DNA from: a phage | Sequence record: PZ386953.1 | DNA length: 64,000 nt | Strand: one strand, 5' to 3' | Shown here: positions 21,290 to 31,546 of the stretch, piece after piece | Position numbering within the stretch: the first letter of the stretch is position 1 | Layout of the letters: each line of letters starts with the position of its first letter | Translations under genes and position numbers: made by a program | The notes under the pieces: model-generated | What the model was told of the DNA's origin: nothing | What the model saw: only the letters and a program-made list of their open reading frames with translations | Database searches by the model: none

Positions 21290-21523
21290 TTAATCTTCGT
21301 AAATCAGGATTTCTGCTTTAGGTTTTCGTGCTTTCAGGTCCAGCTCTATCCAGTGCACCATAGCTGTTTCAAGAAAAACAGCTTGGATGCATCCGTCCTC
21401 AGCGTGCCCCACCAACATAACGAGATCTTCACCTTCGTCATCTGCATCACGAACATAAAGAATCTCTCCAGATTCGAAGTCTTTCACAACCTGATTGCTA
21501 GATAATTTTCTAATTTTTGCCAT
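21290..21523 (-). CDS. small protein, divergent member of tandem paralog family
   Basis: 77 aa; shares G-x-V/I...V...F/L...D...IL pattern with the three 87-aa genes downstream. Confidence 0.4.
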   Translation of the reverse strand: MAKIRKLSSNQVVKDFESGEILYVRDADDEGEDLVMLVGHAEDGCIQAVFLETAMVHWIELDLKARKPKAEILIYED

Positions 21524-21524
21524 A

Positions 21525-21788
21525 TCAGAAACCCTCTAAAAAGCTCTTGTAGAAAACAATCTCAGTATCCACACCAGTCACAATCTTGTCGTTCCTGATT
21601 TCATCGGTAAGATAGGTGTCAAAACGCAGAACCTGTGTGGTGTTGTCACACATCCACTCAGCTGTGACCATTGCGAAAATCTTAGCATCTTCATTATCTG
21701 GTGTGAATGTTACCACCTCACCGCACTTAAACTTTTCGATAGGCTGAGTGTTAGCTTTCGGTTCTGCGATAGTGATTTTTGTGGTCAT
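21525..21788 (-). CDS. small protein, tandem paralog 1
   Basis: 87 aa; FxCGxVV...FD...VTxxD pattern. Confidence 0.4.
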   Translation of the reverse strand: MTTKITIAEPKANTQPIEKFKCGEVVTFTPDNEDAKIFAMVTAEWMCDNTTQVLRFDTYLTDEIRNDKIVTGVDTEIVFYKSFLEGF

Positions 21789-22051
21789 TATTCTCCTCCT
21801 TCTTTTGAATAGCTTGTCTCTCCAAGGATGGTAATTTTGGTGTCAAGCTCTGTAACTTTCATGTTTGGCGGCAGATCGTACAACTCATTATTTTCTAAAT
21901 CGAACCCCCACACACAATGTTCTCCTGTTTTGACAATCATAACTATGTTTTGAATGCCGTCTCCGTCGCAACTTACCACGGTCCCACACGGAAAACTGTC
22001 TGCACGCTTTTTGTTCTTCACCTTAGAATTGAATACAATGCTGGTAGCCAT
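21788..22051 (-). CDS. small protein, tandem paralog 2
   Basis: 87 aa; same pattern; 1-nt overlap with neighbours. Confidence 0.4.
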   Translation of the reverse strand: MATSIVFNSKVKNKKRADSFPCGTVVSCDGDGIQNIVMIVKTGEHCVWGFDLENNELYDLPPNMKVTELDTKITILGETSYSKEGGE

Positions 22052-22314
22052 TATTGTTCCTCCACCATAACTTCGCCAAGAATTTCTATGCAGGCATCCA
22101 TTTCTGTAACAACCAAACTGTGAGGCAGTTCTACAAACACCTTTCTGAACAGGTCAAATACCCCAACATATATGTTTGCAGGATGTGATTTTACAACAAG
22201 TGCTGTATTCACATCCCCAAGTTCATCAACAAACATCACCACAGTGCCTGGAGCTACTGAGGACAGATACTTCTTAGTTTTACGGTTTGATGCAAATTTT
22301 AACTCTGTTGCCAT
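22051..22314 (-). CDS. small protein, tandem paralog 3
   Basis: 87 aa; same pattern. Confidence 0.4.
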   Translation of the reverse strand: MATELKFASNRKTKKYLSSVAPGTVVMFVDELGDVNTALVVKSHPANIYVGVFDLFRKVFVELPHSLVVTEMDACIEILGEVMVEEQ

Positions 22315-22329
22315 AAATAACCTCCTCTC

Positions 22330-23811
22330 TTACTTAGCGTACTCGATTAATTCCACAGTTTTCCCAAAGCTCGGGATATAATTTTTATTATACCCCTCAG
22401 TGAGGACCCATAGAGTATCGTACTTTTTCCACTTGTTGTCAACAACCTTTTGTTCAAAGTTATGCTCAAAGTATAGGTCGGTCAGGACGATGACATCTTT
22501 TGCATTAGGTATGTTGGCATCCAGATACTCGAACACGCAAGCAGCTGTTGTGCCCCATGTTGAGTGGACCTCATAGTTGACCATCTCGTCTATGTTGCCG
22601 CGAGTGTATACTTTAACCTCTCCAACCTCAGTTGACCAACAGAACATTGTAACCTTAAACTCTTTATACAGATTGCACAATCCGGTGATTTCATTGAACA
22701 TTTTCTTTAAAGTTCTTTGAGAGATCGAGCCAGAAACGTCTAAAGCCACCACAATATCTATAGTGTTTTCCGGATTACGACCAGGAACAATAACGTGCTG
22801 GTTCTTGTTTATAGCCCCAACTTTTCGCATTGTGCTGGTCAAAGACCCAGATCGGCGACCAGGTTTTCTGTAGGTCAGTTCGGCCTTTCTTTTAGACAAC
22901 ATACGTTGCTTAATGATGTCTATATAGTTGATTACAGGCTTACCTCTGTTCTTGACAAACTCACGCACCGCCTCAGGGCAACGGCCTCCGGACGCTTGCA
23001 TTGCTGCCTCCAGCATATCACCAGAGTCCTGCATGGCCTGATCTTTATCAGATTGGCTGATTACAGGTTGTGGCTGATCATACCCCATAGCCTTTCCAAG
23101 ATTATCACTGGTGCCACCGTTCCCACTCATGTGATCATCGGTTTGTCGCTTATCACTTTGAGAGTTCTCACCTTTACCGTTCTTACTTTTACCGTTATTC
23201 TGATCTCTTTGCTTATCAAGAACTGCATAAACGTTCTCAGCAATCCATCCATGAAACTTCATGTCGCAGTAGCAGCTGGCTAAGAAGCCAAAAGGCTTAC
23301 CTTTCATGAACGTAGTGCTTTTCCCCTTCGGGAAGAAAACACAAGGAGGTTTGCTAAAGTCAACCACAAGGCCTGTGTTGATAACGTGATCACAAGCAAT
23401 ATTGAACAGTTCCGGCTCAAAGCTTTTACCACGGACTAGGTGATCACAGATAATATGCCCCACCTCATGTGACAGAAGGAAGGCCACCTCTTTCACAGAT
23501 TTTGGGGAATAGAAAACTTCAGCCATCTCAAACTGCTCGTCAGTTAGAGAAGCCTTAAGAATAGCCTTGCGTTCATCAGCCAATCCCATAATGAACTCAG
23601 GACTGTAATAGATGCGTTTATGGTCGGTTGCCATGGTGGAGCACCATGTGTGGTTTTCTACGAACTGCAACCCTGACAGTAGTGTGCCATAAAACGGCAA
23701 CTTTTCAAGGAGATACATACGTGCAGCCTGCAACATTCTCAGGGCATCATCTTTCTGCGAGGCAATGATTTCTGAACTTCTGCTATCCATTAAAACTCCA
23801 GGAGGGGCCAT
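22330..23811 (-). CDS. putative zinc metallopeptidase - vWA domain protein
   Basis: HEVGH (HExxH) in N-terminal half; DVSGS (vWA MIDAS DxSxS) in C-terminal half; alternative start at 23790 has a better RBS (first ATG lies inside a hairpin). Confidence 0.6.
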   Translation of the reverse strand: MAPPGVLMDSRSSEIIASQKDDALRMLQAARMYLLEKLPFYGTLLSGLQFVENHTWCSTMATDHKRIYYSPEFIMGLADERKAILKASLTDEQFEMAEVFYSPKSVKEVAFLLSHEVGHIICDHLVRGKSFEPELFNIACDHVINTGLVVDFSKPPCVFFPKGKSTTFMKGKPFGFLASCYCDMKFHGWIAENVYAVLDKQRDQNNGKSKNGKGENSQSDKRQTDDHMSGNGGTSDNLGKAMGYDQPQPVISQSDKDQAMQDSGDMLEAAMQASGGRCPEAVREFVKNRGKPVINYIDIIKQRMLSKRKAELTYRKPGRRSGSLTSTMRKVGAINKNQHVIVPGRNPENTIDIVVALDVSGSISQRTLKKMFNEITGLCNLYKEFKVTMFCWSTEVGEVKVYTRGNIDEMVNYEVHSTWGTTAACVFEYLDANIPNAKDVIVLTDLYFEHNFEQKVVDNKWKKYDTLWVLTEGYNKNYIPSFGKTVELIEYAK

Positions 23812-23823
23812 TGGCCCCTGTCA

Positions 23824-24864
23824 TTATTTAACGTGTTTGAAAATACCTGCCAACTCGGTCATTGTCATGCGGGTGGTCTTCATAAGATCTGTCATAGCTT
23901 TCTCCATAATTGGAGATACTACCATAAAGTTTCCTTTAGTGAAACCTTTATTCCAGTCGGTCACCAACAGGGGTTTAAGTCCAGCTCCAAGACGTTCACC
24001 AGTTAAAGCACAGCATTTGCGAATATACGAACTCTTAAATTGGCTGAACGACAGATCAACTTTCATACCTACATCGTAGAACGTTTGACAATAGAAAGTG
24101 TAAGCTTTGGCAATCTCAACATCATCAGGTAGTGCAGGAACCTCTTCTGTAAGCCCCTCTTCGACCTCCTGAGTCTCTTTTTCCTCTTCATGCACCTGTT
24201 GCGTCATTTCTTCAATCTCTTCTGTGATAGGCTCGTTTACAATGTCGGAAATGTGCTTCTTGGGTGCACGATAAGTAACTTTAGACATCGGTAGCATATC
24301 TTCCTCCTCTTCTTCGTCAAAGAGTGCTAGTTTATCCTCTTCCGTTCCATATTGCAAGATGAAATCTTCAAAAGTATAATCACCTTTCAATTTCTCCATA
24401 CGCTCTTCGCTCAGGTGGAGCATCATCTGCTGGACAATTTTTCGATCAGTTTCGTCTTTAATCAAGACTGCAGTCTTTTTATCTACCAGACAGTCCTTTA
24501 GAGAGTTGCATCTCAATCCCACCACACAACAGTTATCAACCGCATAAGGACCTTCATCATCTATCCGCTCCAGGGATGGGTAGAAAGGATTCCCCAGCCC
24601 GTTTTCATCTGTGTGCATGTCAAAAGGTATAAGGGTATAGTCGCATACTCCATCTCCTAAAAGTTTTTTACCAAATAGGAGGTATTCTTCCCATGACAGG
24701 TCGAACTCTATATCTCGTTTCCGTGCGTTATTCTGTTTGCGTCTATATTTTTTGAGCAAGCGCTCTAACTCTTCTGGTGTATAATATTTTTCAAGATTCA
24801 TGAGTCGTCTCTCGTGCTCTGTAAGTGAAGAAATCGTATCAATTGTCTCAACAGATGTCAACAT
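23824..24864 (-). CDS. acidic protein with two related Cys-containing segments
   Basis: 346 aa; poly-E linker; N- and C-terminal segments both begin LSW/FxxY/F; internal MSKVTYRA encoded by a 29-bp repeat. Confidence 0.4.
   Translation of the reverse strand: MLTSVETIDTISSLTEHERRLMNLEKYYTPEELERLLKKYRRKQNNARKRDIEFDLSWEEYLLFGKKLLGDGVCDYTLIPFDMHTDENGLGNPFYPSLERIDDEGPYAVDNCCVVGLRCNSLKDCLVDKKTAVLIKDETDRKIVQQMMLHLSEERMEKLKGDYTFEDFILQYGTEEDKLALFDEEEEEDMLPMSKVTYRAPKKHISDIVNEPITEEIEEMTQQVHEEEKETQEVEEGLTEEVPALPDDVEIAKAYTFYCQTFYDVGMKVDLSFSQFKSSYIRKCCALTGERLGAGLKPLLVTDWNKGFTKGNFMVVSPIMEKAMTDLMKTTRMTMTELAGIFKHVK
24265..24293 (-). repeat. 29-bp inverted repeat, arm 1
   Basis: Reverse complement of TACCGATGTCTAAAGTTACTTATCGTGCA, inside the 346-aa - strand gene. 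Confidence 0.8.
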
Positions 24865-24874
24865 CAAAAACGTG

Positions 24875-24903
24875 TTGACTTTACTCTAACTCCACAATAT
24901 AGT
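24875..24903 (+). promoter_or_regulatory. sigma70-like promoter
   Basis: TTGACT-17 bp-TATAGT at the strand-switch region. Confidence 0.5.
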
Positions 24904-24943
24904 GCACCCATTCGAAAGAAAACTAACATAGGAGCACTTACTT

Positions 24944-25843
24944 ATGGCAAATCTTAACAGTTTTAGTACGCGGTGGAAACAGGACATAACAACCAATCTT
25001 TCAGCTGGGGACATCCTTTCTGCAATTTACGAGGCTTTAGATGATAAAGCTACTTCAAAAGCGGTTTGTACCAACCCATTAATTCCTATAGTGATGAAGG
25101 TTATTGAGCGTAGATTGGTATCTGGGTCTGATAAGTGGACATATTTAGATAATGAAGGACACACCTATTCCAATGGGTATGTCGATATAAAAGTAGAATA
25201 CGCGGTATCATACCGCCGGAGCGGTTCTGTAACTTTCAACTTCTCTGGAGGTTTTCGATCTCTGGCTACCTCACCTTTTGTTTCCTCGGAGGAGAAGTAT
25301 GAGCTGCCATTTCTTTGGATGATGGCTAACGCGACAGGAAAAACCCCCGTTAGCATCCGAGTAAAATACAACTACAACGGATCTAGTAAGATCTATGCCG
25401 AAAGTGTCTCAGCAAGTTTTTATTTTGTGATGGGGGATGGAATCCTCAAACATATAAAGATGTGCGATATGCATGATGTTATAAATGAAGTGACTGATAA
25501 GAATGTTCTAGTGAAAGACCTCAACAATTTTTATACACCTGGAGACTATTACGTCAGCCGTCCACTGTGCATCTTTAATGCCGCACACCCTCTAGGTGAG
25601 TATTTGATCGCCAATAGCGATATTGCCAATAACCGCTTCGAGGTAGCAAGAGTTCAGAATGAGGTATTGACATCTTGCAAGAGCGGTGATAAGTTTACCG
25701 AAGAAGAGATGGGTGTTTTAGAAATGATGGGATATAAGTGTAGCCTTTGGGTAGATGAGGTGTTTAATGATTGCATCTATGGACAGGATATTTACCCATT
25801 AAAGAAGTATACTGATACAAGTTTAATTTATGCGAGGGTTTGA
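24944..25843 (+). CDS. hypothetical protein
   Basis: 299-aa ORF; AGGAG RBS; consensus-like promoter 24875-24903 upstream. Confidence 0.45.
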   Translation: MANLNSFSTRWKQDITTNLSAGDILSAIYEALDDKATSKAVCTNPLIPIVMKVIERRLVSGSDKWTYLDNEGHTYSNGYVDIKVEYAVSYRRSGSVTFNFSGGFRSLATSPFVSSEEKYELPFLWMMANATGKTPVSIRVKYNYNGSSKIYAESVSASFYFVMGDGILKHIKMCDMHDVINEVTDKNVLVKDLNNFYTPGDYYVSRPLCIFNAAHPLGEYLIANSDIANNRFEVARVQNEVLTSCKSGDKFTEEEMGVLEMMGYKCSLWVDEVFNDCIYGQDIYPLKKYTDTSLIYARV

Positions 25844-25845
25844 CT

Positions 25846-26118
25846 ATGATGAAGGCATGTGGTAATGTATATTACGTCGGTGAACATGTTCAGGCAGACA
25901 GTGTGTGGAAATCTATTAAGTCCACCACTGACGATGCCTTTCTGAGTGGACTATGTTTCCCCAATCCGGGAGACATCCTCCCTCATCCTGGAGATTTTGT
26001 TGTCAACAAGATGGACGGTTATACCGTGTGCCTGATGGTTGAAAAAATCTTTTTAGACACTAGACACAATCACCGTCTTGTGTTAAAATTTCAAGAATGT
26101 AAAATGACAATTGCCTAA
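25846..26118 (+). CDS. hypothetical protein
   Basis: ATG 7 nt after GAGGG; overlaps upstream stop. Confidence 0.4.
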   Translation: MMKACGNVYYVGEHVQADSVWKSIKSTTDDAFLSGLCFPNPGDILPHPGDFVVNKMDGYTVCLMVEKIFLDTRHNHRLVLKFQECKMTIA

Positions 26119-26126
26119 GGAGACCT

Positions 26127-26155
26127 TACCGATGTCTAAAGTTACTTATCGTGCA
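26127..26155 (+). repeat. 29-bp inverted repeat, arm 2
   Basis: TACCGATGTCTAAAGTTACTTATCGTGCA spanning the start codon of 26132..26488. Confidence 0.8.
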
Positions 26156-26488
26156 GCTATTTACTGCAATGAACACCCAATCAATAATGATGGTCACTGC
26201 CTTTTTAAAGAAAATCAATTGGGCTGTATTGTCCTCCCCGATGAAGGGGAAGGTTATCTGATTGCATTGACAGGGTTTGAACCTGAGGCTCTGGAAGCCA
26301 ATCTGGACTACCTGGTAGAAGAGGGTGCTGCAGACCTGGTTGCCAATGGCCTCTCCATAAGCCTTGACGAAGTAGAGCGCTTCATGGGCAATTACCGTGT
26401 AGTGCGTGAGTTTACTATCGAGGTGGAAACTCCCGAGTGGGGTAGCCATGAAACTAATGCCGAAGAAAAAGAAGAGGAGGTAGAATAA
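26132..26488 (+). CDS. hypothetical acidic protein
   Basis: ATG after AAGGAGA; first 8 codons lie in the 29-bp inverted repeat. Confidence 0.4.
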   Translation: MSKVTYRAAIYCNEHPINNDGHCLFKENQLGCIVLPDEGEGYLIALTGFEPEALEANLDYLVEEGAADLVANGLSISLDEVERFMGNYRVVREFTIEVETPEWGSHETNAEEKEEEVE

Positions 26489-26745
26489 TGAAAGTGCAGA
26501 TCTTGACTAATGCTGAGAAGATGTTTATTGAAGATACACCTTTTGAAGCTGGTGAGCTACAGTTCGTTTATTTTGTTGACTTAGATAAGGTGTTTCCTGC
26601 ACTGAATCTAGGTTTGGATGAAGTTCCTCATAAGGTTTTGTGCCGAGTTGTTCGTGCCTTAGCGGCAGAGGGGGAGTTCCACACCCTTCAAGATGTCCAG
26701 ACCTACGGGTATCTTGAACTACAACGAGAAGAAGAGGTGGACTGA
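26488..26745 (+). CDS. hypothetical protein
   Basis: 85 aa; ATGA stop-start overlap. Confidence 0.4.
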   Translation: MKVQILTNAEKMFIEDTPFEAGELQFVYFVDLDKVFPALNLGLDEVPHKVLCRVVRALAAEGEFHTLQDVQTYGYLELQREEEVD

Positions 26746-26747
26746 TA

Positions 26748-27128
26748 ATGGCTCAGTGGAAGACAACAGTTGACCTTCATGATCAGTGGTTAGGACGCAT
26801 CACTGAAGACGGGAAGCTAGTGGAGTGGGACAATAAGCATGTTAGCGAGTTGGCAAGTATTGTGGCTGGCAAGTTACGCTCCAAGTTCCCTGAACAACTG
26901 GATCCTGATAGTTCAAAGTTCGATCCTGAGTTAGAGGATGTTGTATACTACTTCGACACCGTTGATGACTACGACGCGTGGTTTGCAGCACGGGAGCTTT
27001 ACCCACAAGGCTCTGCTATGCGCCAGATGGAAGAAGATTATCCTCCGTGTGAGCAATTCAATAGTGCAATGACTTGCCTCTATGATTGGGCAGATAAGAA
27101 CCTTGTCTGGATTCGGACTGCATTTTAG
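26748..27128 (+). CDS. hypothetical protein
   Basis: 126-aa ORF. Confidence 0.4.
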   Translation: MAQWKTTVDLHDQWLGRITEDGKLVEWDNKHVSELASIVAGKLRSKFPEQLDPDSSKFDPELEDVVYYFDTVDDYDAWFAARELYPQGSAMRQMEEDYPPCEQFNSAMTCLYDWADKNLVWIRTAF

Positions 27129-27172
27129 TGGGCAGGAATGGCGGCAAGGATGCTGCTTAAGGAGTAGTAGAG

Positions 27173-27442
27173 ATGTTATACCAGCAATATGAACTTCGTG
27201 CAGAAAAAGAGTTAAATTTTGACAAAGATATTCACAGATATTATTATGGGAAAGTTAGAGGGCAAGCAAGAAAGTGTACTCCAACACTCTTTTATGCCAG
27301 CAGACGACTAGCGCCAGAAGAGGCAACAGCAGAAAGGGTTGCGTACAACTGGAGAGTCACGTATGATATTGACAGATTCGATGTGATATCTGTTTTGGAA
27401 AACTTTGAAAACACTTACACACAAGTAGAGGACTTTTACTAA
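27173..27442 (+). CDS. hypothetical protein
   Basis: 89-aa ORF. Confidence 0.4.
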   Translation: MLYQQYELRAEKELNFDKDIHRYYYGKVRGQARKCTPTLFYASRRLAPEEATAERVAYNWRVTYDIDRFDVISVLENFENTYTQVEDFY

Positions 27443-28626
27443 TGTCAAGAAACGTATTCGAAAGTGGTCAAATCACTGTCCGTGAGTTGCCAGCTATTAT
27501 TCAGTTTGCCCAACGTCATAGCCGATCTGTCCTAATTTTGGGACCAATGGGTGTGGGTAAAAGCCAGGTGATGAAGCAGATCGCTGATAATATGTTCGGT
27601 GAGCGAGATGACAACCTTGTTGACGTGCGACTGTCAGATAAAGATCCTGCCGACTTATCTGGGCTACCTATCCCTGTAGAAGCGGATGGAACTACACGTA
27701 CAGTGTTTGCAATTCCAGAATTTTGGCCTGCGAATCCTGACTGGAGCGGAATTATCTTTCTGGATGAGCTCACTCATGCAGATAACTACCTGCAAAAGGT
27801 TGCAATGCAAATTATGCTTGACCACAAGTGCGGCACCTATGCATTCCCTAAGGGCTCTGTTTTTGTGGCTGCGGGTAACCGTTCTACAGATGGTGCGGTT
27901 CTTTCGGCGCTCGAAGCCCCTCTGGCTAACCGTTTTATCATTGTAGAGGTTACAAGCAATGCAGAGGTGTTTATTGAGGACTACGCATTCCTCAACGGGG
28001 TTCACTCCTCTGTAATTGGGTATCTGAAAAGAGTTCCATCAGCTATTGATAATTATGAGGCTATGGCTGAGATTAATTGTCCATCTTTTGCCACACCACG
28101 ATCTTGGGTTGCTGCATCTGACATCTTGCACGATTTTGACAGCGGTATTATTTCTGACGCTATGGCCCGTGTTCTTCTGCAAGGTGCTATTGGTCACACT
28201 GCAGCGGTAGAGATCTGGACTTACCACACCAAGAAACGTAATTTACCGGAAATCGGTCGGATTATGGCAGGTGGCTGCAAAGAATATGTAGGTCCTAAGC
28301 AGCCAGACATTTTGTGGATTCTTGGATCTGAAGGTTGTATCGCTATTCGCAATATGATGGAAAATGCAAGTATCTCAGACGAAGATCTTGTCAGCTGCGT
28401 GGCAAACTTCCTCGATTTCCTTTGGGAAAACTTCAAGGACGAGAACCGAGATTTTGTATTCTCAGTCTTTATGGCGATGATGAAACCTAATGCCTTAGGA
28501 AATGCCTTGCTTATCGGTAAAGGGCGTGACAAGATTGTTGCTCAGCTGATCAAAGCATACCCAAACCTGATGAAGATTGTAAAAGAGTTTGGTGAAGAGT
28601 TTAGCGCCATTTTGGCTAAAGCTTAA
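27442..28626 (+). CDS. AAA+ ATPase, MoxR-like
   Basis: Walker A GPMGVGKS, Walker B IIFLDELTHA; TAATG overlap with upstream gene. Confidence 0.6.
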   Translation: MSRNVFESGQITVRELPAIIQFAQRHSRSVLILGPMGVGKSQVMKQIADNMFGERDDNLVDVRLSDKDPADLSGLPIPVEADGTTRTVFAIPEFWPANPDWSGIIFLDELTHADNYLQKVAMQIMLDHKCGTYAFPKGSVFVAAGNRSTDGAVLSALEAPLANRFIIVEVTSNAEVFIEDYAFLNGVHSSVIGYLKRVPSAIDNYEAMAEINCPSFATPRSWVAASDILHDFDSGIISDAMARVLLQGAIGHTAAVEIWTYHTKKRNLPEIGRIMAGGCKEYVGPKQPDILWILGSEGCIAIRNMMENASISDEDLVSCVANFLDFLWENFKDENRDFVFSVFMAMMKPNALGNALLIGKGRDKIVAQLIKAYPNLMKIVKEFGEEFSAILAKA

Positions 28627-29066: not shown

Positions 29067-29567
29067 GTGAAAATTAAGATCTTTGCTATTATTTTGAGCG
29101 CACTTTTATCGCTGCCTGTTGTTGCAGCACCAAAACAAAAAGTATATCATACTTGCAAGCCATCAGATACTAAGGAAAACATTCTGGCATGCAATATCTA
29201 CAGGGAAGCTAGAGGAGATGGCACGATGGGTATGCTGGCATCTGGGTTTGCCACACTAAACAGGAAATCCCACCCTAAATACCCAGACACTATAAGAAAG
29301 ATTGTCTACCAACCTAACCAGTTTTCGTGGACAAACCACGGCAAAACTTTTAAGGTGACAGAAAAAGATTCATGGGATCACGCTAAAAGTCTTGCAAAGA
29401 TGCTTCTAAAGGTCTATAATAACAACCATGTTGCATACATGGCTATGGACATAACAGGTGGAGCAACACACTACCATACAACCAAAGTACGACCGAAATG
29501 GGCAAAAAAGATGCAGAGGACAGCTCAATTCGGGAGCCATATCTACTACAAGGAGCGCAATAAATGA
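29067..29567 (+). CDS. secreted cell-wall hydrolase, SleB-like
   Basis: N-terminal signal peptide (MKIKIFAIILSALLSLPVVAAP); LNRKSHPKYPDTIRKIVYQPNQFSW resembles the SleB/CwlJ hydrolase core. Confidence 0.5.
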   Translation: MKIKIFAIILSALLSLPVVAAPKQKVYHTCKPSDTKENILACNIYREARGDGTMGMLASGFATLNRKSHPKYPDTIRKIVYQPNQFSWTNHGKTFKVTEKDSWDHAKSLAKMLLKVYNNNHVAYMAMDITGGATHYHTTKVRPKWAKKMQRTAQFGSHIYYKERNK

Positions 29568-31546
29568 TTGTAAACAGTAATGAAACTAAAGCAGTGCTGA
29601 CCGGAAATATGGAGGTCACCAGGGGCTCAATTTCTCTGAACAAAGAGACTTTTGGGCTAATCATTAAAGGGATTTACGAAGATAAGGTGCTGGCAAGCTG
29701 CCGTGAACCAATCTTCAATGCTGTGGACTCCCATGTTGAGTCTGGACGGGGTGATGTACCGATCATCATTCACTCTCCTACAGACCTTGAACCATACTTC
29801 TTTGTGCAGGACGTTGGATTGGGCATGTCAGAAGAGATGGTCCGCAACACTTTCATGAATCTCGGGGAGTCAACCAAGCGCAACAGCAACGCTCTGGTAG
29901 GTAATAAAGGTGTTGGTTCAAAGGCTCCGTTCAGTATGGTGGACACTTTCGATGTTATCAGTGTGCACAATGGTGTTGAAAGCACATATCTATTGTTCTT
30001 GGATCAGGGTATCCCAAACGTTACCAAGATCCGTGAGCGGAAGACTGAAGAGCACAACGGGGTAAAAGTTCAGTTCCATGTTAAGAAAGAGCATGTCCTG
30101 AAATATCGCACTGCTATTGCATCGTGCTTACGCTATGCGAAGTTTCCGTTCATCGTCACCGATCCTATGACCAGTAAGATGTTAGAAGGTGACAAGGTTG
30201 AGGCACAGTATCATTACGAGAAGGATGGCTGGAAAATGACCATCCTGAAAGGTTATACCAGTTCTGATGAGAGCCGTGTTGTGATGGGTCACCAACCTTA
30301 CCGCTCCAAGTTCCTGGAGACATTGACCGATTACCCTGCAATCTGCGTGGAAATTCCTATTGGGGATTGCAATATTAACCCTGGGCGTGAATGGACCATA
30401 GAGGGCCATGACGACGGTGGATTCCAGGATCGCCTGGAGGCCTTTGTCAAAGAAGGTATACGTCTTCGCGGGGCAGAAGTTATTGCAGAACTGGAGACGG
30501 CAAAAACCTCCGCAGAAGCACGTGAAATGATGAAGAATAGTGGAGTGTTCGGACACATCTTCGGCAAAAACTTTATGTGGAACCGTTGGGAAGAAACAGG
30601 GCTTGGCGACTTAGGCGATTGTGAAATTTTCGCTGGCGGCTTAAATAAAGGCCGCATAGGCTATGCTCGTTACGGAAAGTCGGAGTTCTTACGAGGTGTA
30701 TACCTTGTATTTAACGACGGAGATGGTAAATATAACCGAAATAAGTGTAACTACTTAAGCGAAATCACCGGACGCAACGTTTTCTATTGCCGGAACACGG
30801 ATCTGGTGAAAGAGTTTAAAGAGGCGGCACACCATCCGTTCTTTGCAGATACTGTCAAATTGTTATCAGAGCTCCCTCGCCGACCTGCGAAGAAAGGTGA
30901 AACAAAAACTCATTACGAGCCAGGTTATTGGGTTAAAAAGCTTGAGAAGGATGGTTACTTCCGTCGTGAACGTATTACTAAGGCAGAGTTCAAGAAGATT
31001 AAGCACTGCATTCCTTATGAGGGTGATATCCAACGTGGAAGTTGTTGGCTGGGACAGCTGAGTAACATCTACCAGCAAAATTATGACCGTGTGCGTGCTG
31101 CACTCCAGATTCCTGAAGGTGAAGATCTGTACTTGGTATCAGAATCTCGTCTGCTTTGGACTGATCCTGATTGCCAGTATGTTACAGAGAAGAATGTGGA
31201 ACACTTGTTGAAAGAGGATGCTTGGAAATTCTTACTGACTCGCGCAGCAAATGAAACTTCATATGACAGCTTGTATAGACAATTAGGGAAAATTATCCCC
31301 ATGCAGGATTTTGGAAATTATCGGCCACATTTCCACAAGTGGGAAGGTAACACCGCGTGGAAGCACAGTGAGCTAAATCATCGTGCCAAAATCTTAATCG
31401 CCAACCGGGTTAAGTGCGGGAAGGCCTATATTGCAAGATTGGAAAAGAAATATCCACTTTTGAAGCATGTGGGCTTGAAATATTGGGACACCCCTGCTAT
31501 GATTGAATACCGTGAGCTGATCGATACAAAGAATAACATCAAATAA
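29564..31546 (+). CDS. GHKL-type ATPase-like protein
   Basis: Bergerat-fold motifs in order: N-box EPIFNAVDS, G1 DVGLGM, G2 GNKGVGSK. Confidence 0.5.
   Translation: MIVNSNETKAVLTGNMEVTRGSISLNKETFGLIIKGIYEDKVLASCREPIFNAVDSHVESGRGDVPIIIHSPTDLEPYFFVQDVGLGMSEEMVRNTFMNLGESTKRNSNALVGNKGVGSKAPFSMVDTFDVISVHNGVESTYLLFLDQGIPNVTKIRERKTEEHNGVKVQFHVKKEHVLKYRTAIASCLRYAKFPFIVTDPMTSKMLEGDKVEAQYHYEKDGWKMTILKGYTSSDESRVVMGHQPYRSKFLETLTDYPAICVEIPIGDCNINPGREWTIEGHDDGGFQDRLEAFVKEGIRLRGAEVIAELETAKTSAEAREMMKNSGVFGHIFGKNFMWNRWEETGLGDLGDCEIFAGGLNKGRIGYARYGKSEFLRGVYLVFNDGDGKYNRNKCNYLSEITGRNVFYCRNTDLVKEFKEAAHHPFFADTVKLLSELPRRPAKKGETKTHYEPGYWVKKLEKDGYFRRERITKAEFKKIKHCIPYEGDIQRGSCWLGQLSNIYQQNYDRVRAALQIPEGEDLYLVSESRLLWTDPDCQYVTEKNVEHLLKEDAWKFLLTRAANETSYDSLYRQLGKIIPMQDFGNYRPHFHKWEGNTAWKHSELNHRAKILIANRVKCGKAYIARLEKKYPLLKHVGLKYWDTPAMIEYRELIDTKNNIK

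What the first reader, a model, noticed from the sequence alone, without database searches (positions are those of the whole stretch)
22330..28626. Split vWA-metallopeptidase and MoxR-like AAA+ ATPase pair
The 493-aa - strand protein combines an HExxH metallopeptidase-like N-domain with a vWA domain (DVSGS), and the 394-aa + strand protein is a MoxR-class AAA+ ATPase. vWA-MoxR pairs normally work together as chaperone or conflict systems. Here they sit on opposite strands 3.6 kb apart on either side of the inverted-repeat region, as if separated by a rearrangement. Possible roles are virion assembly or counter-defence.
Basis: partly seen in the sequence, partly recalled or inferred. Interest (0 to 1): 0.55.

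Follow-up and report, generated by a model that had tools for sequence, protein, structure and literature searches.

The report
Split phage MoxR ATPase–vWA peptidase pair
Two real genes of an rV5-like E. coli phage, a MoxR-type ATPase and a zinc-peptidase/vWA partner, form an ancient phage gene pair that one old inversion pulled apart; both genes are already annotated, and a 2025 preprint already reports that the ATPase is needed to overcome a bacterial defence system.

Summary
Both ORFs exist as described. The window is a Vequintavirus, 99.8% identical to phage Murica. The minus-strand protein (best read as 486 aa, 22330-23790) matches Pfam DUF2201_N and the DUF2201 vWA-like domain, with an invariant HExxH and a complete MIDAS motif. 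The 394-aa plus-strand protein is a MoxR-class AAA+ ATPase. Direct Pfam hits are sub-threshold, but homologues at about 1e-43 carry AAA_3/AAA_5, all catalytic motifs are conserved, and its model is closest to NorQ and CbbQ.

The pair is the N4 gp24/gp25-type module, also described in jumbo phages. In 68 of 70 diverse viral loci holding both genes, the peptidase gene lies directly downstream of the ATPase gene. The split is confined to Vequintavirus, Mydovirus and Seunavirus. One inversion of the segment from the anti-sigma-like gene through the promoters to the ATPase explains it.

The ATPase is 393/394 identical to bas54_0063, which a 2025 preprint reports as required to overcome defence system DS-28. 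In that preprint's supplement, insertions in the peptidase orthologue are also depleted in the DS-28-carrying host (log2FC -2.2, q 0.009). The seven genes between the two are unaffected.

Mechanism and target remain open.

The parts
22330..23790 (-). Peptidase-vWA gene (486 aa; the open frame extends 7 codons further, to 23811). Orthologue of Murica gp12 and bas54_0055, and of the N4 gp25 type.
   Evidence: ORF. Pfam DUF2201_N plus DUF2201. 476/486 identical to bas54_0055. Annotated start. RBS and hairpin.
22849..23772 (-). N-terminal putative Zn-metallopeptidase domain (DUF2201_N). The HEVGH motif lies at 23455-23469.
   Evidence: Pfam E 4.4e-28. H108 and H112 are invariant; E109 and H117 are at least 90% conserved; R120, N130, A132, D134 and N138 are invariant (486-aa numbering). 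Coordinates verified.
22348..22755 (-). C-terminal vWA domain with a complete MIDAS motif. DVSGS lies at 22726-22740; T414 and D438 complete it.
23803..23819 (.). GC-rich palindromic hairpin between the anti-sigma-like gene and the peptidase gene. It sits at or near one proposed inversion junction.
   Evidence: Annotated as a terminator in Murica.
23824..24801 (-). 325-aa 'anti-sigma factor'/HNH-like gene, the first gene of the minus-strand unit. In every split lineage it lies upstream of the peptidase gene, as the first gene after the promoters.
   Evidence: Homologues occupy the same position in Mydo and GAP31, but sit on the other side of the promoters in SSBI34.
24833..24903 (.). Back-to-back sigma-70-like promoters that would drive both units. 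Minus strand: TTGACA-17-TACGAT, 24861 to 24833. Plus strand: TTGACT-17-TATAGT, 24875 to 24903. The two -35 boxes form a palindrome.
   Evidence: Consensus scan and sequence. These are pattern matches only; the region-wide number of promoter-like matches (18) is close to the shuffle expectation (14.1, sd 3.7), and function was not tested.
27173..27442 (+). 89-aa gene whose stop overlaps the ATPase start (TAATG). It contains a near-consensus promoter-like site at 27219-27247.
   Evidence: 89/89 identical to bas54_0062. Not required in host CFE311.
27442..28626 (+). MoxR-class AAA+ ATPase gene (394 aa). Orthologue of rV5 'MoxR ATPase', Murica gp4 and bas54_0063, and of the N4 gp24 type.
   Evidence: ORF. 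393/394 identical to bas54_0063. Motifs: Walker A 27541-27564, Walker B 27763-27768, Arg finger R164 27931-27933, sensor-2 R220 28099-28101. Model and fold matches.
28147..28623 (+). C-terminal helical extension of the ATPase, about 160 aa beyond the AAA+ lid. NorQ and CbbQ lack it. It is a candidate partner- or substrate-binding region.
   Evidence: Secondary structure of the model. NorQ and CbbQ are about 250-267 aa, and the fold alignments cover about 270-280 columns. The suggested role is inference.

Best explanation
The two genes encode the two halves of an ancient phage MoxR-vWA machine of the N4 gp24/gp25 type. They are still used together even though an old inversion placed them in divergent transcription units. 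Proposed mechanism: both units are transcribed early from back-to-back sigma-70-type promoters. The ATPase forms an AAA+ ring. The vWA domain of the partner docks on that ring, as NorD does on NorQ and CbbO does on CbbQ. Its MIDAS site captures an acidic residue of a target protein. ATP hydrolysis remodels the target, and the fused HExxH peptidase cleaves it. The biological output in this phage lineage is counter-defence: neutralising the two-gene E. coli system DS-28, either directly or by processing a phage or host factor. Shown here or in print: the domain identities, the ancestral adjacency, the inversion-type rearrangement, the dispensability of both genes on K-12, and the requirement for the ATPase against DS-28. 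Inferred: ring formation, ATPase-vWA docking, MIDAS capture, proteolysis, the identity of the target, and continued cooperation of the two proteins.
For: Identity of the parts: Pfam DUF2201_N plus DUF2201; invariant HExxH and MIDAS columns; vWA fold. ATPase homologues at E about 1e-43 carry AAA_3/AAA_5/bpMoxR. Walker A/B, N146, R164 and R220 are invariant. The AF2 model (pLDDT 82.8) has a beta-hairpin at 75-90, and its best structural matches are NorQ, solved with the NorD vWA domain, and CbbQ2. Linkage: 68 of 70 IMG/VR loci with both genes have the peptidase directly downstream on the same strand. The same holds in SSBI34, CB7, G7C, an Asteriusvirus, S-TIM54, UPEC06 and two distant contigs. 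Per-host-genus counts of the two proteins in phage records are similar for most genera. Both are core genes of N4-like viruses (PMC7650795). The pair was described in jumbo phages as a chaperone-cochaperone pair (PMC7824862). Function: bas54_0063, 393/394 identical, is reported as required to overcome cloned DS-28 (bioRxiv 10.1101/2025.11.20.689424). In host CFE311, insertions in 0063 (log2FC -7.23) and in the peptidase 0055 (log2FC -2.20, q 0.009) are depleted, while 0056-0062 and 0064 are not. Both genes are non-essential on K-12. Purifying selection: about 93% nucleotide but 98.5% protein identity to FV3.
Against: No interaction, ATPase or protease activity has been measured. The peptidase effect in CFE311 is far weaker than that of the ATPase. 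It comes from a whole clinical strain rather than cloned DS-28, and 21 of about 229 features are significantly depleted there, so it could be coincidental. The preprint pairs the ATPase with a different gene, bas54_0140, and not with the peptidase. The N-terminal domain found no solved metallopeptidase relative. The composition of DS-28 could not be retrieved. The anti-defence evidence comes from a preprint.
Confidence: 0.55

Rival explanations
1. The two genes became functionally uncoupled after the split. In Vequintavirus the ATPase acts against DS-28 with another partner (the 99-aa bas54_0140 product, or alone). The peptidase-vWA protein has a separate role, possibly against something else in the host.
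For: The preprint identifies 0063 and 0140, not 0055, as the anti-DS-28 genes. The effect sizes differ greatly: -7.23 and -5.48 against -2.20. The genes have been in different transcription units since before Vequintavirus, Mydovirus and Seunavirus diverged.
Against: Both genes remain intact and under purifying selection in every split lineage examined. All MIDAS and HExxH residues are retained. vWA partners of MoxR proteins have no known stand-alone activity (established knowledge of RavA-ViaA, CbbQ-CbbO and NorQ-NorD). The peptidase is co-depleted in the same host while its neighbours are not.
Confidence: 0.25
2. The pair is a virion-assembly chaperone and processing protease, as proposed for jumbo phages and by analogy with the MoxR-vWA tail-assembly system of Acidianus two-tailed virus. 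On this view the DS-28 phenotype is indirect.
For: Proposal in Iyer et al. 2021 (PMC7824862). The pair is a core module of N4-like viruses. Proteostasis genes lie nearby in some phages: Hsp20 in S-TIM54, and Hsp20, ClpS and ClpP in a 578-kb contig.
Against: Both genes tolerate insertions at about 94% of TA sites with no fitness cost on K-12, which is hard to reconcile with a morphogenetic role. They lie in an early-type region next to rIIA/rIIB and an anti-sigma-like gene, behind sigma-70-like promoters, and not in the structural module. In N4-like phages they sit among RNAP II and nucleotide-metabolism genes.
Confidence: 0.1
3. The pair is a general host-takeover or proteostasis remodeller. 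It would act on a host complex such as a respiratory or metallo-enzyme, as cellular MoxR-vWA pairs do. That action would incidentally prevent triggering of DS-28.
For: Cellular MoxR-vWA systems (NorQD, CbbQO, RavA-ViaA, CoxDE) mature or remodel specific enzyme complexes. The pair is found widely in phages of unrelated hosts, many of which need not carry DS-28.
Against: No phenotype is seen on K-12. The specific loss of plating on cloned DS-28 points to a defence-linked role.
Confidence: 0.1

Closest known systems
bas54_0063 (MoxR ATPase) and bas54_0055 (putative metallopeptidase) of Escherichia phage MaxBurger/Bas54, MZ501093 (HIDEN-SEQ preprint, bioRxiv 10.1101/2025.11.20.689424)
   Same: Orthologues: 393/394 and 476/486 identical, with identical gene order from the peptidase through rIIA.
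   Different: Essentially nothing at sequence level: one substitution, N98D, in the ATPase. The second anti-DS-28 gene, bas54_0140, is not inside this 64-kb window.
N4 gp24 (AAA+ ATPase) and gp25 (vWA-like), core genes of Schitoviridae
   Same: Same two families (G7C gp25: DUF2201_N 1e-54 and DUF2201 3e-34; G7C gp24 is an ATPase homologue). ATPase upstream, peptidase-vWA downstream.
   Different: About 22-28% identity. There the genes are adjacent and co-directional, sometimes with an HNH homing endonuclease inserted between them. Here they are on opposite strands, 3.6 kb apart.
MoxR AAA+ and peptidase-fused vWA pair of group 2.2 jumbo phages (Iyer et al. 2021, PMC7824862)
   Same: Same architecture: an N-terminal metallopeptidase fused to vWA, next to a MoxR ATPase. 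Asteriusvirus homologues were detected.
   Different: That paper proposed a virion-assembly role. The data for the rV5-like orthologues point to a dispensable, defence-linked role instead.
NorQ-NorD and CbbQ-CbbO (cellular MoxR-vWA remodelling pairs)
   Same: Nearest solved structures for the ATPase (Foldseek E about 1e-7, target-normalised TM about 0.63). NorD vWA is among the fold matches of the partner. Same ring-plus-MIDAS-adaptor logic.
   Different: 16-23% identity. The cellular adaptors have no fused HExxH peptidase. The phage ATPase carries an extra C-terminal helical domain of about 160 aa. The substrates are metallo-enzymes or Rubisco.
MoxR-vWA ternary conflict systems of multicellular bacteria (Kaur et al. 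2020, PMC7159879)
   Same: A MoxR-vWA core used in a biological conflict context.
   Different: Those are host-side systems with a third component (VMAP, iSTAND, FtsH or beta-propeller) and effector domains. No such third gene is present here, the bpMoxR Pfam match is sub-threshold, and there are no PADLOC matches.

Membership tests
MoxR-class AAA+ ATPase (helix-2-insert clade; Pfam AAA_3/AAA_5) | Walker A, Walker B, sensor 1, arginine finger and sensor 2 all present | tested here: met
   GPMGVGKS (34-41), D108-E109, N146, R164 in 'NRF' and R220 in 'TPR' are all invariant across 37 homologues.
MoxR-class AAA+ ATPase (helix-2-insert clade; Pfam AAA_3/AAA_5) | The protein itself scores above the curated cut-off of a MoxR-type Pfam model | tested here: not met
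   AAA_5 16.8 bits (cut-off 22); bpMoxR 15.2 (cut-off 27); AAA_3 not reported. NCBIfam and PDB sequence searches gave only P-loop-level hits to Clp proteins.
MoxR-class AAA+ ATPase (helix-2-insert clade; Pfam AAA_3/AAA_5) | Significant homology to proteins that do match the MoxR models | tested here: met
   Homologues at E about 1e-43, 31-37% identity over 70-92% of the query, carry PF07726 (AAA_3), PF07728 (AAA_5) and sometimes PF20030 (bpMoxR).
MoxR-class AAA+ ATPase (helix-2-insert clade; Pfam AAA_3/AAA_5) | Beta-hairpin insert in helix 2 and a pre-sensor-1 hairpin; nearest structures are MoxR members | tested here: met
   The AF2 model (pLDDT 82.8) has strands 75-81 and 84-90 between beta2 and beta3, and short strands at about 129-135. 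The top Foldseek hits are NorQ and CbbQ2. This rests on a predicted structure, not a solved one.
MoxR-class AAA+ ATPase (helix-2-insert clade; Pfam AAA_3/AAA_5) | Hexameric ring and ATP hydrolysis | not testable with these tools
   Requires biochemistry or a multimer prediction.
DUF2201-type metallopeptidase-vWA protein (Pfam PF13203 + PF09967) | Both Pfam domains above their curated cut-offs, in N-to-C order | tested here: met
   PF13203 99.1 bits (cut-off 23.2); PF09967 44 bits (cut-off 26.4).
DUF2201-type metallopeptidase-vWA protein (Pfam PF13203 + PF09967) | Conserved HExxH zinc-binding and catalytic motif | tested here: met
   HEVGH. H108 and H112 are invariant and E109 is at least 90% conserved across 29 sequences.
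DUF2201-type metallopeptidase-vWA protein (Pfam PF13203 + PF09967) | vWA fold with a complete MIDAS motif (DxSxS...T...D) | tested here: met
DUF2201-type metallopeptidase-vWA protein (Pfam PF13203 + PF09967) | N-terminal domain has a metallopeptidase fold and proteolytic activity | tested here: inconclusive
Phage MoxR - peptidase-vWA module (N4 gp24/gp25 type; Iyer 2021 jumbo-phage pair) | Both components encoded in the same genome and homologous to the N4-like and jumbo-phage proteins | tested here: met
   tblastn and HMM matches to G7C gp24/gp25, Asteriusvirus and S-TIM54 proteins.
Phage MoxR - peptidase-vWA module (N4 gp24/gp25 type; Iyer 2021 jumbo-phage pair) | ATPase gene immediately upstream of the peptidase-vWA gene on the same strand | tested here: not met
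   Here the genes are on opposite strands, 3.6 kb apart. This departure is shared with Mydovirus and Seunavirus and is explained by an inversion.
Phage MoxR - peptidase-vWA module (N4 gp24/gp25 type; Iyer 2021 jumbo-phage pair) | Physical and functional cooperation of the two proteins | not testable with these tools
   There is only indirect support: co-depletion in host CFE311.
Anti-DS-28 counter-defence genes of Bas54 (HIDEN-SEQ preprint) | Orthology to bas54_0063 | tested here: met
   393/394 identical, in the same genomic position.
Anti-DS-28 counter-defence genes of Bas54 (HIDEN-SEQ preprint) | Loss of plating on DS-28 when the gene is deleted | not testable with these tools
   Reported for Bas54 in the preprint (Fig. 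4e). Not reproducible here.
Anti-DS-28 counter-defence genes of Bas54 (HIDEN-SEQ preprint) | Presence of the second required gene (bas54_0140 orthologue) | tested here: not met
   tblastn found no match in the 64-kb window. In Bas54 the gene lies about 38 kb beyond the ATPase gene, so its orthologue is expected to fall just outside the window.
Bacterial MoxR-vWA ternary conflict systems or other known defence systems | A third component (VMAP, iSTAND, FtsH or beta-propeller), or a match to a defence-system model | tested here: not met
   The bpMoxR match is sub-threshold. PADLOC gave only weak P-loop matches for the ATPase and none for the peptidase. No such neighbouring gene is present.

The most novel reading that the evidence does not exclude
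The split pair is still one machine, and it represents a widespread, ancient class of ATP-driven proteolytic counter-defence. A phage MoxR ring and its MIDAS/Zn-peptidase adaptor would capture, unfold and cut a host immune protein such as a DS-28 component. That would explain why the module is kept as a core or near-core feature in N4-like viruses, Vequintavirinae, jumbo phages and marine phages.
Probability: 0.25. Interest if true: 0.65.

Novelty: already known. Interest (0 to 1): 0.3.

Why it matters
The module is one of the few non-structural, non-replication gene pairs shared by very different phage groups: N4-like viruses (where it is core), rV5-like phages, jumbo phages and cyanophages. 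Its function has long been unknown. The recent genetic link of the ATPase to DS-28 gives a first experimental handle. The supplementary data suggest that the peptidase-vWA partner is part of the same phenotype, which the preprint does not discuss. If so, this would be an enzymatic, ATP-dependent anti-defence mechanism rather than a stoichiometric inhibitor. The split lineages offer a natural test of whether operon linkage is needed for the pair to work. As a genome-scan finding, though, it is ordinary: the genes are correctly recognisable and were already annotated and studied.

Tried and rejected
Searches that led nowhere:
- Direct family and structure-sequence searches with the ATPase (Pfam, NCBIfam, PDB phmmer) gave only P-loop-level hits to ClpB/ClpC, p97 and similar proteins. 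They could not assign a clade.
- PADLOC gave nothing meaningful.
- The search for related loci with the peptidase alignment failed because no stretch was conserved enough. The ATPase alignment was used instead.
- The composition of DS-28 could not be obtained. DefensePredictor's text does not name it, and its supplements are not held.
- The CFE303 sheet, which I hoped to use as a negative control, is a duplicate of the CFE311 analysis.

Ideas considered and rejected:
- The 325-aa 'anti-sigma/HNH-like' gene as a remnant of the HNH homing endonuclease found between the pair in CB7 and G7C. Its SSBI34 homologue lies on the far side of the promoters, not between the pair.
- The perfect 29-nt inverted repeat as the inversion breakpoints. 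Its arms lie inside the interval rather than at the junctions, and both arms occur together only in Murica-type genomes.
- A polar effect as the cause of the peptidase depletion. Insertions in the upstream gene 0056 and the downstream genes 0054 and 0053 are not depleted.

Full report
WHAT THE WINDOW IS. A 7-kb stretch around the finding is 99.8% identical to Escherichia phage Murica, and 122 phage records match it, mostly rV5-like Vequintavirus genomes. Public records already label the two genes 'metallopeptidase, contains von Willebrand factor domain' (Murica gp12) and 'ATPase / MoxR ATPase' (Murica gp4, rV5, LL12).

THE OBSERVATION. Both ORFs exist at the stated coordinates.

The minus-strand protein:
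- It matches Pfam DUF2201_N (E 4.4e-28) and the DUF2201 vWA-like domain (E 2.9e-11), both well above their curated cut-offs.
- Across 29 homologues, some only about 20% identical, the two histidines of HExxH are invariant and the glutamate is nearly so. The full MIDAS set is also invariant: D351-x-S353-x-S355, T414 and D438 in 486-aa numbering.
- An AF2 model (pLDDT 81) has two folded domains joined by a disordered Asp/Gly/Ser/Gln-rich linker.
- The C-terminal domain matches vWA/MIDAS domains, including Midasin, BchD and NorD.
- No solved relative surfaced for the N-terminal domain. 'Metallopeptidase' therefore rests on the Pfam match and the motif.
- The real start is most likely Met8 (ATG at 23790). 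It is preceded by GGAG and a GC-rich hairpin, as in the public annotations, which gives 486 aa.

The plus-strand protein:
- Direct searches see little beyond the P-loop. All Pfam hits are sub-threshold, and the PDB and NCBIfam hits are to Clp-type proteins over about 40 residues.
- A database search finds homologues at E about 1e-43 (31-37% identity over 70-92% of the query) that carry AAA_3, AAA_5 and sometimes bpMoxR.
- An alignment of 37 sequences shows invariant Walker A, Walker B (D108 E109), sensor 1 (N146), an 'NRF' arginine finger (R164) and a 'TPR' sensor 2 (R220).
- The AF2 model (pLDDT 82.8, pTM 0.75) has a beta-hairpin inserted after beta2, plus an extra C-terminal helical domain of about 160 residues.
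- Its best matches among solved structures are NorQ, solved in complex with the NorD vWA domain, and the Rubisco activase CbbQ2 (E about 1e-7, target-normalised TM about 0.63).
- MoxR class is therefore supported, with the caveat that the protein itself fails the Pfam thresholds.

THE PAIR IS ANCIENT AND NORMALLY CONTIGUOUS.
- tblastn finds the ATPase in 821 phage records and the peptidase in 664. Counts per host genus are similar for most genera: Escherichia 216 and 214, Pseudomonas 108 and 102, Pectobacterium 26 and 26, Cronobacter 17 and 17. Vibrio is the exception (103 and 44).
- The records span Vequintavirinae, N4-like podoviruses, jumbo phages and a cyanophage.
- In G7C the two genes are gp24 and gp25, with an HNH homing endonuclease between them. 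Both are listed as pan-family core proteins of N4-like viruses (PMC7650795).
- Iyer et al. 2021 described the same MoxR plus peptidase-fused vWA pair in group 2.2 jumbo phages (PMC7824862).
- I fetched 80 IMG/VR loci with the ATPase and scanned them with HMMs of both proteins. Seventy contain both genes, and in 68 of those the peptidase gene lies directly downstream on the same strand (gap 5-525 nt).
- Nine of the ten ATPase-only loci end within 184 nt of the ATPase gene.
- The only two split cases are an rV5-like contig and a Mydo/KB57-like contig.
- Those 80 loci are dominated by one marine or freshwater clade, so they are not independent samples. The same order is nevertheless seen in SSBI34, CB7, UPEC06, an Asteriusvirus, S-TIM54 and two distant large contigs.

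THE SPLIT IS ONE OLD INVERSION. The split layout occurs in Vequintavirus, Mydovirus and Seunavirus GAP31. In each, an 'anti-sigma factor'-like gene is the first gene after the promoters and lies upstream of the peptidase gene. Other Vequintavirinae (SSBI34, Certrevirus CB7, UPEC06) keep the contiguous layout.

Flanking-gene homology gives these orders:
- SSBI34: primase <- helicase <- SleB <- RNA ligase <- phosphatase <- ... <- anti-sigma-like | HD-hydrolase -> ... -> ATPase -> peptidase.
- The window: peptidase <- anti-sigma-like | ... -> ATPase -> 126-aa gene -> SleB -> rIIA -> rIIB -> helicase -> primase.

Flipping the segment from the anti-sigma-like gene through the promoters to the ATPase converts one order into the other. 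In Mydo and GAP31 the phosphatase and RNA ligase genes lie downstream of the ATPase, as this model predicts. Outgroups make the contiguous state ancestral.

After the inversion both genes still lie behind one back-to-back pair of sigma-70-like promoters (24833-24903). That would preserve early co-expression. These promoters are pattern matches, not measured promoters.

FUNCTION. The HIDEN-SEQ preprint (bioRxiv 10.1101/2025.11.20.689424) studied Bas54 (MaxBurger, MZ501093). Its gene order here is identical to the window, and its proteins are 393/394 (ATPase) and 476/486 (peptidase) identical.
- The authors report that deleting bas54_0063 (the MoxR ATPase), or the unrelated 99-aa gene bas54_0140, makes the phage sensitive to cloned DS-28. 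DS-28 is a two-gene predicted defence system of E. coli CFE311.
- Their supplement shows that both the ATPase and the peptidase are non-essential on K-12, with 60/64 and 81/86 TA sites hit.
- In CFE311, insertions in the ATPase vanish (log2FC -7.23). Insertions in the peptidase fall about 4.6-fold (log2FC -2.20, q 0.009). None of the seven intervening genes, nor the genes flanking the peptidase, is depleted.
- That pattern argues against polar effects and links the two split genes. The preprint's main text does not mention it.
- Caution is needed. Twenty-one of about 229 features are significantly depleted in that strain. The strain differs from K-12 in more than DS-28. The sheet labelled CFE303 is a duplicate of the CFE311 analysis, so I had no negative control.

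MECHANISM (INFERRED). By analogy with NorQ-NorD and CbbQ-CbbO, the vWA domain docks on the AAA+ ring and uses its MIDAS site to hold an acidic residue of a target. ATP hydrolysis remodels the target, and the fused HExxH domain cleaves it. The target could be a DS-28 component, or a phage or host factor that controls triggering of DS-28. I could not retrieve the composition of DS-28. The virion-assembly role proposed for jumbo phages fits poorly with the genes' dispensability and their early-region location. It cannot be excluded for other lineages, where the pair is core and sometimes sits beside Hsp20, ClpS and ClpP.

VERDICT. The feature itself is already known: it is annotated in over a hundred genomes, the pair type is published, and the ATPase's phenotype has been reported. 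This analysis adds three things: the single-inversion account of the split and its phyletic limits, the equation with N4 gp24/gp25, and the unremarked co-depletion of the peptidase gene in the published data.

Noticed in passing
window 24265-24293 and 26127-26155: A perfect 29-nt inverted repeat, with none expected by chance, straddles the divergent promoters. Both arms are coding and in frame. They encode (L)PMSKVTYRA in the middle of the 325-aa anti-sigma-like protein and at the annotated N-terminus of the 118-aa plus-strand gene (Murica gp8). Similarity stops abruptly at the arm ends. Both arms are exact in Murica and LL12. Only the plus-strand arm is found in Bas50 (exact), and in Bas54 and an IMG/VR relative (1 mismatch each). 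It could be a recent gene-conversion tract, a substrate for a 1.8-kb inversion that would swap the 5' parts of the two genes, an internal translation start, or a shared translational operator.
   Followed up: partly
window 22330-23790; PHROG 1314; RefSeq NC_041871, NC_048741: The peptidase-vWA family is labelled 'HNH endonuclease' in PHROGs, and from there in several RefSeq records. No HNH domain is detectable. This looks like a propagated mis-annotation, perhaps seeded by the HNH homing endonucleases that often sit next to this gene.
   Followed up: partly
L004 4918-5394 (G7C gp24.1); L005 5584-6096 (CB7_109): In two unrelated phage groups (N4-like G7C and Certrevirus CB7) an HNH homing endonuclease gene is inserted exactly between the ATPase and peptidase genes. 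The junction appears to be a recurrent insertion site. L082, with a gap of 525 nt, may be a further case.
   Followed up: no
window 21525-22314 (-): Three tandem 87-aa genes lie directly downstream of the peptidase gene. The first two are clear paralogues (33 identical positions in a 90-column alignment). The third is more weakly related (27 of 94 to the second), and a fourth 77-aa gene at 21290-21523 shows no convincing similarity. Bas54 has one copy fewer in this array. Function unknown.
   Followed up: partly
window 27219-27247 (+): A near-consensus sigma-70-like promoter (TTGACA-17-TATTAT, 11 of 12) lies inside the 89-aa gene, about 195 nt upstream of the ATPase start. The ATPase may have its own promoter. 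That would fit the absence of any effect from transposon insertions in upstream genes.
   Followed up: no
window 26469-26490, 26729-26750, 27423-27444 (+): Three successive gene junctions in the plus-strand unit share an 'AAGnAGAGGnnn...TAATG' motif: a Shine-Dalgarno sequence followed by overlapping stop and start codons. This indicates translational coupling of the small genes leading into the ATPase gene.
   Followed up: no
Supplement of bioRxiv 10.1101/2025.11.20.689424, Extended Data Table 8, sheets Data S6 and S7: Sheet S6 is titled K-12 vs CFE303, but its command line names the CFE311 files and its numbers are identical to S7. The CFE303 table seems to be missing from the deposited file.
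   Followed up: yes
GenBank MG0656xx records (e.g. MG065635, MG065647): Sixteen records named 'Campylobacter phage', with host Campylobacter jejuni, are 96-99% identical to this E. coli rV5-like region. The host labels look doubtful, possibly through contamination or mislabelling.
   Followed up: no
MZ326168.1 (Salmonella phage NINP13076): In this 161-kb record the ATPase (133185-134348, +) and peptidase (96376-97794, +) genes are about 35 kb apart on the same strand. That is unlike GAP31, which has comparably similar versions of both proteins. Either a further rearrangement or an assembly problem could explain it.
   Followed up: no
L011 3686-6318 (cyanophage S-TIM54); L093 592-7591 (578-kb contig): In distant phages the pair sits among proteostasis genes: Hsp20 directly upstream in S-TIM54, and Hsp20, ClpS and ClpP nearby in a 578-kb contig. 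This hints at a protein-quality-control or degradation context for the module.
   Followed up: partly
window 29067-31546 (+): Downstream of the ATPase unit lie a SleB-type cell-wall hydrolase with a signal-peptide-like N-terminus and an rIIA homologue. The peptidase unit begins with a Srd-like 'anti-sigma' gene. The whole neighbourhood looks like an early host-takeover and anti-defence region.
   Followed up: no
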